A DNA stretch of 64,000 nucleotides from positions 8,370,001-8,434,000 of the forward strand of contig NC_043000.1 of assembly GCF_006345805.1 (NCBI RefSeq). The letters run 5' to 3'. Numbering within the stretch: the first letter of the stretch is position 1; each line of letters begins with the position of its first letter. Below are positions 12,001-57,000 of the stretch, one piece after another. Source of the DNA: Octopus sinensis. Taxonomy: Eukaryota. The position numbers were made by a program.

Positions 12001-15000
12001 TTACTAAAGTTTAAAATTTCTGAATTAGTAAATCTTAGATAATGTCAAGGATATGTTACTTCTATTTAATAGGTTTTGTAATATGATACCTTTATATAAC
12101 TATAAAACAAATTAAACTATAGCTAAGAAGACATCATAAATGTCAGAAGGCAGTTTTACTATCATAGTAAACTATAGGACTTAAATCAAATGCTTTTATA
12201 TTTTGTGAGAAAGTTAAATTTATTTTAACTTATGATTCTGGACAACAATTATGATTAACTTTTTAAAATATATAGAAATATCAACAAGTAAAACCTGCCA
12301 AGACTTTGGAAATTATTATGAAATGTTCACATTGTTTATGTGGTAATATATAGATTTTGCTACAAAATTTTAACTTAACATCCATGGCTAAAGAAGAAAT
12401 TGTTCATAATTTAAGCCTATTATTGTATTATTTGAATAGCAAATACTTAATGATTTTGAAAATGAGGAAAAATTATTGGTTTTGATTTAAAGATGACATA
12501 ATTCCTTGAGTTTTGTGATTGGAATGGCAAATTGATTGAAAATTTCCTTGATACTGATTCCTTTCTGACTGGAAAGAGGAATTATCAAAAGAATAGATTC
12601 AGCAACATTGAATTGATTTTAAAAAATTCATTATGGTCCTGCTGGATAATGTATAGGAATATGTAATATGCATTGCCCAAGATTTTAATTTTCATTAGCA
12701 AACCAGGTGTGTGTTCGGCTTATATTTTAATTAATTCCATTAACTTTACCATCTTACTGTGACCAACTTTTCCATTTATAGGTGAATAGTTGGCCTTTAA
12801 AGAAGATACGCTACTCTAAAAGTTCTTGCCCCAATAATTCATGCGAGATATCTAATCACCTTTCAACATGAAAGGAGATGGTGTTGGGGTTGAAGAACTG
12901 AAATATCATAAATATTCCTAAAACTTTCAGTTAAATCTTCTTTTATAGGTTGTTATTTTTATAATTGATGTGATTCATTCTTGATTACATGTTGCTTGTA
13001 AGGTCATCAGGCTATTTCCATCATATTTGATGATACTTGCCTGTCAATAAAGAATACAAGCAAGCAAAACATTAAAGAAAAAAAAAACTACAACAAAAAG
13101 TAAGGAATTAGTTATTTCTGAATTCACTTAAATCTATTATTCTAGAAGAGATTGTCTGAAATTGCAAATGTTTGTGTCAATCAATAAATATTCCATTAAA
13201 AATTCATTCGTAATGAATTTTCTAATCTTTATTTCAAATACTTTTAACATAATTACTGAGATTTCTAATACAGAGAATATCAAGAGTAAATTGGTTATAT
13301 AAAAATTTTGTCACATATGGTTACATTCTGAGCTTTTAAATGTTTATTATCTGCTTTGATATAAACTTTTTTTAGAGGTGTTATATTCTTATTATAGAGA
13401 TGTTGTATTCTTGAAGGTCTTGCCATAATTTGAAATTACATAACATAAAACATATTTTCTCAGTGGCTTCCAAATAATGTGAAAGTCAGTGGAAAATAGG
13501 GTCCACATTATGAAATTTCATATTACAGCAAGATTTCCTGGAATGCAACATTACCTTATTGTAGGGGATGCTTGTATTTTTCACAATAAAACATAGTTGG
13601 TTAAAGGTAAAATGTGATGTTATTTGTTCAAATTTTCATTTATTATGAGAGTTAGATGTGTATAAACAAATCTTTGTTGTCAGTTATACAAACCATATAC
13701 ATTCAGTAACAGTTCTTTGTAGTATATTTCCTTGCTATTATTGTTGAGAGAACACAATATTCAATGTGTTGTTTATCTTCAGACTTTTGTTTTAAGATAT
13801 TCTGTATGTTTCTCCTTTTTTATTGTATCAGGACTAGTTGTTGTAATATATTTGTACTTCACGCTTTTCATATACTGCTGTTGTTTCCAAGTGATATAAC
13901 TTTCCATTTGTCAGAGACAAATAGGTTTTCAGTGATTCTTTAGTAACAGAATAGTTTAGTTAAATGTTTGAAGCAGTTTATGATTTGTGTTGTAGAAAGT
14001 TTTATCTGAAAATGTATTAGCAAAGTGGGGGAAAATAACTCAAAGGATTTTTGTAACATTTTGAACCTATTGTTGTTTGTGTTGTTTAAATTGGTAGGTT
14101 TCATGTTTTTTATTCTACCTTGTGGTTGCAAGAATAAATGCCATCCTCTTTCAGATACACATGGAGATGGTATGTATGGTGCAGATGAAGGAGTGGTTTT
14201 GACTTCTCCTCCCTCAACATGTGATCGTGATGAGAGCTATGCAAAAGGGATTCCGCCGTACGGCTTGCTGACACATTCATCACAAGATGGGTTTTCTTCT
14301 TCCGATAAAACAGGTGATGTCACTTCTCCTGCTGATGCTTGTTATGAGTTTCATACTGCTACACCTGACATTACTTCCCCTCCATCACCTGATTCTCATG
14401 GTGATATAAGTATTTTATCAGCTCAAGGGCAACAAGTTCAACCTTCGTCCCTCCACGAAAGTGTTAGCCCTCATGTAATTGAAAAGGATGTAAAACCTCA
14501 TACGATAACTTTTAGTACTTCGGCTAATCCCAAACCCCAAATTACAGGAATGGAGTTGAATATTGAAAAAACTGAATTTCCTTCACTGCAGGGTTTAGAA
14601 AGTTGTGATAATGGTACCAAGTCTTTCAATAAATCTCAGTGCCTGCCTTCTGAAACAAATGTCAAAAGTATGGATGTAGTAGATAGTTCTAAACCTTCAT
14701 TAGAACATGTTTCCGAGCTTGAAGTTGATGTCAGCAAAGCACCCCAGTCTGATGGAACATCTGCTGCAAGCAGCAAATCTGAAGGGAGCAAAGAAACTTT
14801 GACATTAATTTCATCAGAATCTTGTCAAATATCTATTACCAAAACTGAAGAAGAAAGTGATTCCGAATCTGAAGAAAATTCTGTTATAGAGAGAGATCCC
14901 TCACTGCTGGACTCTGATTCAACAGGTTACGGAGACCAGAAGTCTGACACTGATAGCTCGTATGTTGAAGAAGAAGAAGTGTCAATTTCTGATTCAGACG

Positions 15001-54000: not shown

Positions 54001-57000
54001 ATGACTCTCCCCAGACACAACAAAATACGCTTCAACACATGAACTCACATAAAGAATCTTGCAATCCAAATCCAAAAAACGAAGTAACCAAATGATGAAT
54101 AATAAAACATTGAAATTGAATCAGTGCATGTTTATATCATTAGAATAATGACCCTCCCAAAACACTACAAATATATAATTGTAATTTTGTTTTACTTAAA
54201 TGTTAGTTTGCTCCTCAAATTTTGTAGTCTTGACCCTTTAGTATTCAGGCTTTTTTGTCAAATGCATTGCTTATTTATTTGCATTATTGTGAATCAATGA
54301 TGCATTATCTTGTAGCTTCAATATTTCAATGATGTGTTTGTATATTTTTCATGACATTGTTGGGTAGGTGTGAGAAGTTGGATCTAGTCAGTTTTAACAT
54401 AAAACAGATAGAATATTTGGACCAGATGTGGCCAGATTAAATGCTATAGGGCTAATTCTTTATTACATCAGTATCTCCTCTTTTACAAGAAGTTTGAATG
54501 AATAGTTAAGAAAAAATTCTTAAAAGATATTGAATTTGTAATTTTGAAATCTTGTTAATTTGTGCACTATTATTGATAAATATGTTGGTAATACTTAATT
54601 AATGTTTTGTTTACTTTTTCTTTCATTTATGTGCGATGTGCTATTTTCTTTATGTTTTTACGTAGCACGGCAAATAGCAGGAGCAGAACATTCCTCACCG
54701 TCACCAAGCTCTCGAAATGTTCGTTCTAAAATTGGATCTTTGGACAATGCTAGGCATACACCTGGTGGGGGAAATGTAAGTAATTTAGCAAGTCCTTTAA
54801 TAAATGTTTTGTACTGTCTTTCTCCGTGCACTGAGATGAATGCATGAGTGTATGTGTACAAAAAACAGGAAGAAAATATAACCCACATTGTCTCCATTCT
54901 GCTTTCTTTTTTATATTCCTCTCTTATACCTTCATTTCTTCTCTGTTTCTCTCTTCATCTAGTATTAGATGATAATTATCTGTGATGAAAAGAGGCTTAA
55001 TTTGAATTCTATGATGTTTTCCTCTCATTAACTACCACCTTGTTTTTGGCAGTATAGTTGGTGTTAATATAAATCTCTGGCGCATGTATTTATTTACCCT
55101 TCTTGAAAGCTTATCTCTCATGAAGTGGCACTCTTACAGCTTTCTTGACCTCAACTAAAGGAATGCAGTTCAAATATGCTCGTGGCACATTCTAACCTGT
55201 AAGCGAGCCATTCACTGTATTTTGCCATGGAGAAAATTTCACACTGTAGACAAATGGTGTAAACACCTAAATCAGCTCACAGCGCCACCTACCCAGACTG
55301 TAAGATGCAAGCATTTTGGAGTGGTTATCTCCTCTTCAGTCACAGAAACCAGAGAAGAATAATTTATTTTCCCTATGAACACAAATGCTACCAATGAGAG
55401 AGTTTAATCTAAAGGTCTGTCTAATACAGATTTATCTCCTCATCAACTAATCCACTTGTAGCTCACATTTAATTTCTGATAAAATAACAAATAAGTTGGC
55501 TTGACAAATTTCTTTCTTTTTCATCTTATTTGCATAGGCACAGTGCCATGCATTTGGTGGAGGGAACTGTGAATTATATCAATCGTAGTCCTTGACCAAT
55601 ATTTTAGCTTATTGACCCTATAAAGATGTCATGATTCTGTATGGATGTCAGGTAAAGTCCGCAATAGTGAGATTTGAAATTAGGACGAGGAGAGCTGCTT
55701 TAACATATTGTGAAACATTTTGTGTATTGCTCTACCAATTCTGCCAACGCCTCACCCTTTACAATCAATATTAATAATGTTAATGGCTGTTTTATATGAC
55801 ACATACCAGTACATGAATCATTATTTTAGTGGCTGTGTGGTAAGTAGCTTGCTAACCAACCACATGGTTCTAGGTTCAGCTCCACAGCGTGGCATCTTGG
55901 GCAAGTGTCTTCTGCTATAGCCCCGGGCCGACCAGTGAGTGGATTTGGTAGATGGAAACTGAAAGAAGCCTGTCGTATATATGTATATATATATATAAGT
56001 GTGTGTGTATATGTTTGTGTGTGTGTTTGTCCCCCTAGCATTGCTTGACAACCGATGCTGGTGTTTTTACGTCCCCGTAACTTAGCGGTTTGGCAAAAGA
56101 GACCGATAGAATAAGTACTGGGCTTACAAAGAATAAGTCCCGGGGTCGATTTGCTCGACTAAAGGTGGTGCTCCAGCATGGCCGCAGTCAAATGACTGAA
56201 ACAAGAAAAAGAGTAAAAGAGTGTATATAATATTATATATAATACTGATGTGTATAATGTTTATAATGTGTATACAAGCATGGAATGGTTCTACCTATAA
56301 TATTTTGTCTATGAGAAACTTCTCAAAGGAATTGTGTGTTAAAGACACAGGGCATCATTTAGAATGCCAGTGGATTACCAGACATGGTTGGTGTTTCAAC
56401 TTGATTTGATTTCCTCACTGAGCTCAACCAAATATACTTGTTTCGGTAGAGAAATCAGTCAGGAATGCATCGACTGATTGGTGCAAAAGCAGGCCAGGCT
56501 GGAATCAAATTATATGCAGCATCAGATTAGAATACCAAATACCAGGGTGTATAATATTTATGTGTATACAAATGTGGAATGGCACTGGGCTATCATATCT
56601 TGAAGCCATCACCACTCTTGTGACCCTCCTCCTTCTTCCCCTCCTTGCTCCTGCATCTCTCCGCCTCCCCTCCTCCTCCTATAATTTTCATTTTTATATG
56701 TTGCGTGACATAGTTGGGTTTTTGTAAAGCATCTTTTATGAAAGATGCTGAATATGAAAGTATTATTATTATTTTTATTATTATTATTATTTTTGATTTC
56801 TTGATTTCTTACCTTTTGGTTTGGTTGATGATCTGCATTGATTTTGTTTTGTATTGGAAGTCAAAGACATCAGGGAAGACTGGCAGATCTAAGGATAGTC
56901 CAAGGAAGAAAAAATCAAAGGTTGGAATTCACACTTGTATTATGCAGCCATTCCGACTACCAAAGCTCTCCAAAACATTATTCCTTGGCACACTCTGATG

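What the first reader, a model, noticed from the sequence alone, without database searches (positions are those of the whole stretch)
14155..54775. Giant Tau/MAP2: a ~14.5 kb frame-symmetric exon upstream of canonical tubulin-binding repeats
Seen: one exon of 14,505 nt with phase-1 acceptor and donor. It splices in frame to exons at 51010 (1->0), 53343 (0->1) and 54666 (1->0), which encode PGGG/KIGS repeats. Charge order is acidic bulk, then basic SP-rich region, then repeats, as in MAP2. Established: vertebrate MAP2 and big tau toggle projection-domain exons, and giant ankyrins use giant exons, but these are at most several kb. Inference: an invertebrate (probably cephalopod) Tau/MAP2 with a switchable ~4,800-aa spacer (>500 kDa) that could set microtubule spacing in large axons. 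Gene predictors would likely split it or mislabel it titin-like.
Basis: partly seen in the sequence, partly recalled or inferred. Interest (0 to 1): 0.92.

Follow-up and report, generated by a model that had tools for sequence, protein, structure and literature searches.

The report
Octopus tau-family gene with giant exon
This is the middle of an octopus gene of the tau/MAP2/MAP4 family, in which a single 14.5-kb exon appears to add about 4,800 acidic, spring-like residues ahead of the microtubule-binding repeats, and public annotations have cut it into pieces mislabelled as titin.

Summary
The window is from Octopus. An O. vulgaris protein is 99.6% identical to it over 449 aa. Annotated proteins of O. 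vulgaris and Argonauta hians contain just these joins. The last two exons hit Pfam Tubulin-binding above its cut-off. The charge order is as described.

Two corrections:
- The 14,505-nt exon is not one open frame here.
- The 51010 exon is a 41-nt acidic micro-exon, not a PGGG repeat.

The indels look like assembly errors. Six lie in a stretch that has no substitutions against an intact copy 765 nt upstream. O. bimaculoides also reads the whole exon as one ORF.

No single model joins the full exon to the repeats. NCBI calls the pieces "titin", "titin-like" and "pharyngeal muscle protein 2-like". A 252-aa protein from an unnamed relative lacks the giant exon, which fits a cassette. Expression as one protein of more than 5,000 aa is unproven.

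Verdict: a new variant of a known family.

The parts
14155..28659 (+). Giant exon, 14,505 nt, about 4,824-4,835 codons. It encodes the projection domain plus the basic region.
   Evidence: Splice-site context. ORFs. O. bimaculoides models P0001 and P0154 cover it: 92% identity, and 91-97% by segment. P0002, P0003 and P0153 all leave it at ...SRK|D.
14157..20864 (+). Acidic non-array part, 2,236 aa: E 15.6%, S 11%, net charge -256, pI 4.4.
   Evidence: No Pfam family at E<=1. 91.2% identical to P0154 over 2,271 columns, and all 11 gaps are in frame.
16803..16987 (+). Short run of 42-nt (14-aa) repeats of the type VKEEVKPAETAPT, 4.4 copies.
   Evidence: Tandem Repeats Finder; translation.
16113..16364 (+). 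Copy 1 of the conserved motif DSQDI..P..T[YF]L.KRLSLVEF..E.P.....R.GS.I.T.
   Evidence: 30 invariant columns among 3 copies. Also present in P0154.
16977..17228 (+). Copy 2 of the same motif.
20466..20717 (+). Copy 3 of the same motif. AlphaFold2 predicts helix-Pro-helix at residues 21-37 and 39-48.
   Evidence: mean pLDDT 62.3; 86-87 over residues 21-40. No hit in Pfam, PDB sequences or the Atlas.
20866..27204 (+). Tandem array of 24-nt units (about 264 units; 8-aa unit KPVEAPEE and variants). About 2,103 aa with E 32, P 20, V 14, K 13 and A 13%, net charge -401.
   Evidence: period 24/48/72, 73-79% matches; composition.
23061..23062 (+). Frame break 1: one A missing from an AAA run (GAGAA-CCT against the usual GAGAAACCT). 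The coding frame moves by -1.
25269..25722 (+). Stretch holding frame breaks 2-7 (-1, -1, -1, +1, -1, -2). It has no substitutions against the intact copy at 24501-24959.
   Evidence: 6 indel events, 0 substitutions. Flanking parts of the same alignment differ by substitutions and by indel blocks of about 12-27 nt.
27204..27959 (+). Acidic unique part after the array, 252 aa, net -26. It contains the ATG at 27312 where the O. vulgaris and A. hians models start.
   Evidence: 27312 is the first ATG of the last unbroken ORF. 94.0% identical to P0154.
27960..28658 (+). Basic region rich in S, K and P, 233 aa, net +46, pI 10.9. It sits where tau, MAP2 and MAP4 have their proline-rich region.
   Evidence: 97.0% identical to P0154; 70% to A. 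hians over the whole 470-aa tail.
51010..51050 (+). 41-nt micro-exon (phase 1 to 0) encoding (D)QLYDQMEYDENER.
   Evidence: Present in P0002, P0003 and P0153, and in diverged form in P0007.
53343..53529 (+). Exon of 187 nt (phase 0 to 1): end of one tubulin-binding repeat (RPGGGN), start of the next, then an SP-rich linker.
   Evidence: (PF00418, E 3.3e-8).
54666..54775 (+). Exon of 110 nt (phase 1 to 0): ...SKIGSLDNARHTPGGGN, a tubulin-binding repeat.
   Evidence: (PF00418, E 3.7e-11).

Best explanation
The window holds the central part of the octopus gene of the tau/MAP2/MAP4 family.

One exon of 14.5 kb (14155-28659) encodes, in order:
- about 2,240 acidic, probably disordered residues, with three short helical motifs;
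- about 2,100 residues of a PEVK-like array, roughly 264 units of 8 aa;
- 250 more acidic residues;
- a 233-residue basic region rich in S, K and P.

This exon is spliced to a 41-nt micro-exon and then to exons for PGGG tubulin-binding repeats. Two of those exons are in the window. The O. vulgaris protein has further repeats (6 matched stretches in all) encoded beyond its end.

Shown: family membership of the 3' exons, the splice chain from 28659 onward, the continuity of the exon as one ORF in a sister species, and the charge order.

Inferred:
(a) The seven frame-breaking indels in the array are consensus errors of a long-read assembly, so the real exon is open throughout.
(b) The full exon and the repeats sit in one mRNA. 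That would give a MAP of at least about 5,150 aa and roughly 560 kDa, more than twice the longest tau-family protein listed here.
(c) The basic region and the repeats hold the protein on the microtubule, while the long polyanionic chain projects as an entropic brush or spring. It would keep microtubules, or microtubules and other structures, apart.
(d) The exon enters and leaves in phase 1, and both it and the micro-exon begin with AT. It can therefore be included or skipped without changing the frame or the junction residue.
For: Organism and splice chain:
- P0002 (O. vulgaris, 752 aa) matches 27312-28658 at 99.6% over 449 aa. It then matches 51009-51056, 53343-53537 and 54665-54778 in order.
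- P0003 (A. hians) has the same joins.
- PF00418 is found in both 3' exons, in 6 stretches of P0002 and in 8 of P0003.

Exon continuity:
- P0154 (O. bimaculoides XP_014781165.1, 3,371 aa) is one ORF running from 6 codons after the acceptor to ...SRKG at the donor.
- Its identity to the window is 91.2%, 94.0% and 97.0% for the N-terminal, C-acidic and C-basic parts.

Indels as errors:
- Six of the 7 lie in 25269-25722. That stretch has 0 substitutions and 6 small indels against 24501-24959. The flanks of the same alignment differ by many substitutions and by indel blocks of about 12-27 nt.
- Five of the seven are one base lost from a short run: AAA, GG three times, TT.
- The array holds exact repeats of up to 200 nt.
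- The published O. vulgaris assembly is ONT R9.4.1 polished with linked short reads (PMC10700109, passages read).
- P0002 starts at 27312, which is the first ATG of the last unbroken ORF, as expected of a model cut short by the breaks.

Cassette:
- P0007 (252 aa, from a 1.9-kb contig) aligns with P0002 from the K|D junction onward (aa 20-193 against 449-617, 74%). A different 19-aa N-terminus precedes the junction.

Size:
- The longest tau-family protein among the 150 listed of 334 hits is 2,188 aa.

Charge:
-.
Against: - No protein model found contains both the 5' part of the exon and the tubulin-binding repeats.
- In this window the frame is broken. If the indels are real, translation from the 5' part stops at 23211.
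- The break at 23061 has no identical copy to compare with, so it is judged only by analogy.
- I cannot show that the window comes from the ONT assembly. It differs from P0002 at 2 of 449 residues.
- Two O. bimaculoides models end without repeats. P0154 reads through the donor. P0153 reads into the intron after the micro-exon, where the window has AATAAA at 51060.
- The O. vulgaris and A. hians models both start at the same internal Met.
- P0007 comes from an unnamed organism that may have no giant exon at all.
- No upstream exon was found, so the phase of entry, and with it the cassette idea, is untested.
- No expression, protein or binding data were available.
Confidence: 0.65

Rival explanations
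1. There are two products rather than one giant MAP. Transcripts carrying the giant exon would end early, either just after the exon or at an intronic poly(A) site after the micro-exon. They would give a large acidic PEVK-like protein with no tubulin-binding repeats. The microtubule-binding protein of about 750-790 aa would start from an internal promoter and the ATG at 27312, as annotated.
For: - P0154 ends ...SRKG by reading through the donor, and P0153 ends ...DENERVCINSAL inside the intron after the micro-exon.
- The window has AATAAA at 51060, 10 nt past the micro-exon donor, against a background of 0.98 per kb in the intron.
- ATTAAA lies at 28854 and 28877.
- P0002 and P0003, from two genera and two pipelines, both start at MGLLTAIL.
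Against: - 27312 is simply the first ATG of the last ORF left open by the frame breaks, so the shared start may be an artefact.
- The ORF runs on upstream of that Met without a stop, both here and in O. bimaculoides.
- P0153 has S where the window has K in the read-through (VCINSAL against VCINKAL). The AATAAA is therefore apparently not conserved in the very species whose model ends there.
- Two ATTAAA in 1 kb is what the background of 1.74 per kb predicts.
- Three models splice out of the exon at 28659.
Confidence: 0.2
2. The frame breaks are real. In this animal or haplotype the exon is decaying or carries a truncating allele. The 5' ORF would then stop at 23211 and the array beyond it would not be translated in register.
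For: The sequence as given has 23 in-frame stops. The break at 23061 stands alone in a diverged part of the array, with no identical copy to expose it as an error.
Against: - Six breaks sit in 454 nt that show no substitution against the copy upstream. That is an error signature, not a mutational one.
- Behind each break the array still encodes the same peptide, for up to 755 codons without a stop.
- The indels sum to -6, so the 3' part returns to the original frame.
- The sister species has an unbroken ORF.
- The flanking unique parts are 91-97% conserved, with in-frame gaps only.
Confidence: 0.07
3. It is a muscle titin, connectin or other PEVK protein gene, as the database names say, and merely lies next to a MAP gene.
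For: Source names are 'titin, partial', 'titin-like' and 'pharyngeal muscle protein 2-like'. P+E+V+K make up 79% of the array.
Against: - Pfam finds no immunoglobulin, fibronectin-III or kinase domain in any of the three ORF pieces or in P0154.
- The exon's 3' end is spliced to tubulin-binding exons in annotated proteins.
- UniRef itself names P0002 'Microtubule-associated protein'.
Confidence: 0.03

Closest known systems
Vertebrate MAP4 and MAP2 (high-molecular-weight tau-family MAPs)
   Same: The order of parts matches: a long acidic projection domain, then a basic S/P/K-rich region, then PGGG tubulin-binding repeats at the C-terminus. The projection domain contains short tandem peptide repeats, including a 14-aa period at 16803-16987. 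MAP4 is recalled to have 14-aa repeats in its projection domain; that point is from memory and comes from no call. A. hians P0003 is named 'MAP4-like' by its source.
   Different: The projection part is about 4,600 aa. The whole of the longest listed family member is 2,188 aa. There is no Pfam MAP2 projection domain. The 2,100-aa array of 8-aa units has no counterpart that I found. Invertebrate family members cluster apart from the three vertebrate paralogues (PMC8985376, abstract and passages), so it is an orthologue of none of them.
Big tau (MAPT exon 4a)
   Same: One large alternative exon adds an acidic, disordered, hydrophilic insert to the projection domain. The insert is conserved in length rather than in sequence and is proposed to widen microtubule spacing in large axons (PMC12896622, abstract and passages).
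   Different: Exon 4a encodes about 250 aa. This exon encodes about 4,800 aa, of which 2,100 are a regular tandem array. Alternative use is not shown here.
Titin PEVK segment
   Same: The composition is dominated by P, E, V and K (79% of the array), and NCBI transfers the name titin to it. It may work the same way, as an unfolded entropic spring. That mechanism is recalled from general knowledge.
   Different: There are no Ig, Fn3 or kinase domains. The unit is 8 aa with A at 13%. The array is attached to a microtubule-binding module, not to a sarcomeric filament.
Drosophila Futsch (MAP1B-like) and neurofilament M/H side-arms
   Same: These are giant or long neuronal cytoskeletal proteins whose bulk is a charged tandem-repeat region thought to act as a spacer. 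This is recalled and comes from no call.
   Different: They belong to different families and bind by different modules. Nothing was tested here beyond the absence of any Pfam hit in the giant ORF.

Membership tests
Tau/MAP2/MAP4 family (Pfam PF00418 Tubulin-binding) | Tandem tubulin-binding repeats of about 31 aa ending in PGGG, near the C-terminus | tested here: met
   Exons 53343 and 54666 score 33.7 and 43.1 bits against a cut-off of 27. The annotated O. vulgaris protein containing them has 6 matched stretches, E 1.1e-61. A phmmer search with the 53343 exon finds 334 proteins at E<=1e-3. Of the 10 best that were looked up, 7 carry names, and these include MAP2-like, MAP4-like and 'Microtubule-associated protein'.
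Tau/MAP2/MAP4 family | Basic region rich in proline, serine and lysine directly N-terminal of the repeats | tested here: met
   27960-28658: 233 aa, net +46, pI 10.9, with S 24.9%, K 20.2% and P 6.4%. It is joined to the repeats through the micro-exon in P0002 and P0003.
Tau/MAP2/MAP4 family | Acidic N-terminal projection domain on the same polypeptide as the repeats | tested here: inconclusive
   The acidic part is there (net -256 and -401). It is continuous with the basic region in one ORF in O. bimaculoides. No single model or transcript seen here carries both it and the repeats.
Tau/MAP2/MAP4 family | Binds and stabilises microtubules | not testable with these tools
   This needs a co-sedimentation or imaging assay.
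MAP2 specifically | MAP2 projection-domain signature and N-terminal PKA-RII docking helix | tested here: not met
   No Pfam family at E<=1 in any of the three pieces of the giant ORF, nor at E<=0.01 in P0154. The RII helix itself was not tested, because the N-terminal exon is outside the window.
Titin / connectin | Arrays of Ig and Fn3 domains, and a kinase domain, flanking the PEVK segment | tested here: not met
   No such Pfam domain in 14157-28658 or in P0154. Only the composition resembles PEVK.
Alternatively spliced cassette exon | Frame-symmetric exon with observed inclusion and skipping | tested here: inconclusive
   The length is 14,505 nt, a multiple of 3, and both the giant exon and the micro-exon begin with AT after a phase-1 junction. 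P0007, from an unnamed relative, lacks the exon. No upstream donor and no octopus transcript were seen.

The most novel reading that the evidence does not exclude
Octopuses make by far the largest tau-family MAP known, more than 5,000 aa and about 560 kDa. They do so by including one frame-symmetric 14.5-kb exon. Its 2,100-residue PEVK-like array and 2,500 further acidic residues form a tunable polyanionic spring or brush on microtubules. Skipping the exon yields an ordinary tau-sized protein. This would be a convergent, twenty-fold exaggeration of the big-tau/MAP2 switch in the other lineage with large brains and large axons. The three conserved helix-Pro-helix motifs, each carrying KRLS and RxGS, would be regulated docking sites along the projection. 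The protein could correspond to one of the high-molecular-weight microtubule-binding proteins purified from cephalopod axons whose genes were never identified, although the 260-kD rod-shaped axolinin (PMC2114230, abstract) is not an obvious fit.
Probability: 0.35. Interest if true: 0.8.

Novelty: new variant of a known kind. Interest (0 to 1): 0.62.

Why it matters
If the full exon is expressed with the repeats, the tau/MAP2/MAP4 family reaches sizes so far seen only in MAP1-type proteins and giant ankyrins. It would do so in the one invertebrate lineage with vertebrate-scale brains and very large axons.

That would give a natural experiment on a long-standing idea: that the length of the projection domain sets microtubule spacing and axon architecture. 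Here a regular 8-aa array changes that length. The array is about 620 aa in the older O. bimaculoides model and about 2,100 aa here, though the shorter figure may be an assembly collapse.

It also matters in practice:
- The gene is split and misnamed in at least three cephalopod annotations (titin, titin-like, pharyngeal muscle protein 2-like, MAP4-like).
- Comparative studies of MAPs that start from proteomes undercount and truncate it. PMC8985376 already met three fragments of one O. bimaculoides gene.
- Expression atlases will report a 'titin-like' gene in neurons.

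Tried and rejected
- Upstream coding exons. tblastn of 150 fetched proteins against the window at E<=5, and of the first 40 aa of P0007 at E<=1000, gave nothing credible in 1-14154. The best hit was MVEMFNYIEEDKF at 5886-5924 (E 1.9), which runs into a stop before any donor. ORFs of at least 55 aa there are microsatellite-like.
- Further tau exons after 54775. Residues 564-752 of P0002 have no match in the window, and no PGGG lies downstream. 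They must lie beyond 64000.
- A single giant annotated model. With the first 1,200 aa it covered only 2,101-5,000 aa and found only P0001. Models above 5,282 aa stayed unsearched.
- Homology of the giant exon outside cephalopods. Of 150 fetched proteins, only A. hians P0003 matched it.
- Function of the triple motif. No Pfam family. Best PDB sequence hit E 0.6, FGF13, taken as chance. No usable hit in the protein atlas. AlphaFold2 gives only a helix-Pro-helix at moderate confidence. I considered a PP1-docking or an AKAP-like reading from memory and dropped both, because the residues do not fit the recalled consensus.
- kb-scale near-identical duplications in the array. blastn at 93% or more found none. 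The array self-aligns at 80-83% in every register. Exact repeats reach 200 nt.
- Axolinin as the protein product. The abstract describes a 260-kD straight rod of 105 nm with a globular head. That does not suit a disordered chain of more than 500 kDa, so I kept it only as a remote lead.
- Literature on a giant tau/MAP exon in cephalopods. Searches found none.
- Every search was made exon by exon or ORF piece by ORF piece.
So there is no dN/dS and no check of splice-site conservation.

Full report
**What is in the sequence.**
The + strand between 14010 and 28664 carries three very long stop-free stretches: 14010-23213 (3,067 aa), 23057-25357 (766 aa, a different frame) and 25650-28664 (1,004 aa).

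It has a good acceptor (ccatcctctttcag|AT) and a weak but used donor (GAAAAG|gttgaa).

There are 23 stops between 23211 and 25647. 'One open exon' is therefore not literally true of this window.

The window has no N. G+C rises from about 27-33% in the flanks to 38-54% inside the exon.

**The frame breaks.**
A tandem array of 24-nt units fills 20866-27204. It has about 264 units at 73-79% matches and encodes KPVEAPEE and variants.

Tracking which frame encodes this peptide shows seven frame changes. Splitting the DNA into half-units shows their causes:
- an A lost from AAA near 23061;
- a G lost from GG three times;
- a T lost from TT;
- an A gained;
- CT lost.

The last six lie between 25327 and 25662. 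The sum is -6, so the 3' part returns to the starting frame.

Aligning 24000-25300 with 24765-26065 gives the telling result. Between 24501-24959 and 25269-25722 there are no substitutions at all and exactly those six indels. On either side the two copies differ by many substitutions and by indel blocks of about 12-27 nt. Differences made only of small indels are the mark of consensus error, not of evolution.

Other points agree:
- The array holds exact repeats of up to 200 nt. Short reads therefore cannot polish it.
- The published chromosome-level O. vulgaris assembly was built from ONT R9.4.1 reads and polished with linked short reads and ONT reads (PMC10700109, passages read).

I cannot show that the window comes from that assembly. 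The isolated break at 23061 is judged by analogy only.

**Whose gene it is.**
The first 2,150 residues find one protein, 'titin, partial [Octopus bimaculoides]' (P0001, 2,625 aa, 92% identity).

The last 470 residues of the exon find two proteins, both carrying PF00418:
- 'titin-like [Octopus vulgaris]' (P0002, 752 aa; UniRef calls it 'Microtubule-associated protein');
- 'microtubule-associated protein 4-like [Argonauta hians]' (P0003, 793 aa, 70% identity).

P0002 maps to the window at 27312-28658 (99.6% of 449 aa), 51009-51056, 53343-53537 and 54665-54778, in that order. Its residues 564-752 have no match, so the remaining repeat exons lie beyond 64000.

Pfam places the Tubulin-binding repeat in the 53343 and 54666 exons above its gathering score. 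It finds 6 and 8 matched stretches in P0002 and P0003. The 51010 exon is a 41-nt acidic micro-exon, not a repeat exon.

**Is the giant exon one coding unit?**
The cluster of P0001 also holds two other O. bimaculoides proteins:
- XP_014781165.1 (P0154, 'titin-like', 3,371 aa). This is a single ORF. It starts at MYGADEG, six codons after the acceptor. It runs through the acidic part, an array of about 620 aa, the second acidic part and the basic part. It ends ...SRKG, which is the read-through of the donor.
- XP_052823634.1 (P0153, 'pharyngeal muscle protein 2-like', 659 aa).

So in a sister species all parts of the exon are in one frame.

Identity to the window rises towards the microtubule-binding end:
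- 91.2% over 2,271 columns, with 11 gaps, all in frame;
- 94.0% over the acidic part after the array;
- 97.0% over the basic part.

P0002 begins at 27312, which is the first ATG of the last unbroken ORF in the window. That is what a pipeline would do with a transcript whose upstream frame is broken.

**Is it joined to the repeats in one product?**
This is the open point.
- The 3' end of the exon is joined to the repeats in two models (P0002, P0003), and to the micro-exon in a third (P0153).
- No model carries the 5' part together with the repeats.
- My searches could not see proteins longer than 5,282 aa with the 5' queries.
- P0153 reads on past the micro-exon into the intron (VCINSAL, then a stop). 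The window has AATAAA 10 nt past that donor, against a background of 0.98 per kb. However, the K-to-S difference implies that the hexamer is not kept in O. bimaculoides.
- ATTAAA at 28854 and 28877 is no more than the background predicts.

The rival reading, a large acidic protein without repeats plus a short MAP, is therefore alive. I give it 0.2.

**Cassette or not.**
The exon's length is a multiple of three. Both it and the micro-exon start with AT after a phase-1 junction, and the exon ends in G. Inclusion and skipping would therefore give the same K|D junction.

Among the best phmmer hits to the 53343 exon is P0007:
- It has 252 aa and comes from a 1.9-kb contig of an unnamed public read set.
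- Its residues 20-193 align with P0002 449-617 at 74% identity, starting exactly at that K|D.
- Its first 19 residues are unrelated to the giant exon.

A contig that short cannot hold introns of the size seen here, so it is most likely a transcript. It shows a form without the giant exon in a relative. It does not show that octopus skips its exon.

Its N-terminus has no counterpart in 1-14154. No other upstream coding exon was found either.

**What the protein would be like.**

| Part | Length | Net charge | pI | Composition |
|---|---|---|---|---|
| Acidic unique part | 2,236 aa | -256 | 4.4 | |
| Repeat array | about 2,103 aa | -401 | | E 32, P 20, V 14, K 13, A 13% |
| Acidic part after the array | 252 aa | -26 | | |
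| Basic region | 233 aa | +46 | 10.9 | S 25, K 20% |

The exon alone comes to about 526 kDa. Adding the 303 residues of P0002 downstream of the exon, and an N-terminal exon, the product would be at least about 5,150 aa and roughly 560 kDa (my arithmetic).

Of the 334 proteins that match the repeat exon, 150 were listed, and the longest tau-family protein among them has 2,188 aa.

Pfam finds nothing in the giant ORF: no Ig, no Fn3, no kinase and no MAP2 projection domain. It is therefore not titin and not specifically MAP2.

The likely mechanism is inferred by analogy with MAP2, tau and big tau (PMC12896622, passages) and, from recall, with titin PEVK:
- The basic region and the repeats bind the microtubule lattice.
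- The long polyanionic disordered chain projects and acts as an entropic and electrostatic spacer.

**A feature inside the projection domain.**
Three copies of a motif of about 45 aa lie at 16113-16364, 16977-17228 and 20466-20717. Its core is DSQDI..P..T[YF]L.KRLSLVEF..E.P.....R.GS.I.T, with 30 invariant columns. All three copies are kept in O. bimaculoides.

AlphaFold2 predicts a helix-Pro-helix (residues 21-37 and 39-48, block pLDDT 86-87) within disorder. No family, solved structure or atlas cluster matches it.

KRLS and RRGS/RSGS look like sites for basophilic kinases. That is from recall and is not tested.

**Known or new.**
The family is known. The pieces are in public databases under misleading names.

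A proteome survey of MAPs noted three O. bimaculoides proteins that are fragments of one gene, LOC106878541, without further analysis (PMC8985376, abstract and passages).

Six literature searches found no description of a giant exon or a giant tau-family protein in cephalopods.

I rate it a new variant of a known kind. The gene structure is well supported. The giant protein is plausible but unproven.

**Limits.**
- The joined spliced model was deliberately not built or searched; all searches were made exon by exon.
Splice-site conservation and dN/dS were therefore not examined.
- No expression data could be consulted.

Noticed in passing
window 32153-33817, minus strand: An ORF of 554 aa inside the 22-kb intron matches Pfam RVT_1 reverse transcriptase (E 3.7e-27). 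It is a retroelement copy antisense to the gene.
   Followed up: partly
window 16113-16364, 16977-17228, 20466-20717: Three copies of a conserved motif of about 45 aa (core KRLSLVEF ... R.GS.I.T) in the acidic projection part, kept in O. bimaculoides. It is predicted to be a helix-Pro-helix and has no match in Pfam, PDB sequences or the protein atlas. It may be a docking or phosphorylation module.
   Followed up: partly
window 51051-51080: AATAAA starts 10 nt after the donor of the micro-exon. An O. bimaculoides model (P0153) ends by reading into this intron. This may be an intronic polyadenylation site giving a repeat-less isoform, but the hexamer seems not to be conserved.
   Followed up: partly
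window 20855-27346, minus strand and other frames: The 24-nt array is open in most frames on both strands, for example 2,163 aa on the minus strand. ORF length inside the array is therefore no evidence of coding or of strand.
   Followed up: yes
window 25269-25722 and 24501-24959: These are two stretches 765 nt apart with no substitutions between them, although neighbouring units differ by 5-7%. Either this is a very recent duplication or the second copy is an assembly artefact, in which case the true array is shorter.
   Followed up: partly
window 400-800, 5100-8100, 9470-10750, 60000-61000: Long microsatellite-like tracts (TA/CA-rich, read as YIYIYI or CVCVCV in translation) fill much of the flanking introns.
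   Followed up: no
P0154 (about 620-aa array) against window 20866-27204 (about 2,100-aa array): The array is about 3.4 times longer in this window than in the older O. bimaculoides model. In the newer O. bimaculoides annotation it is split between two models, P0001 (partial) and P0153. This could be real length variation or collapse in a short-read assembly.
   Followed up: no
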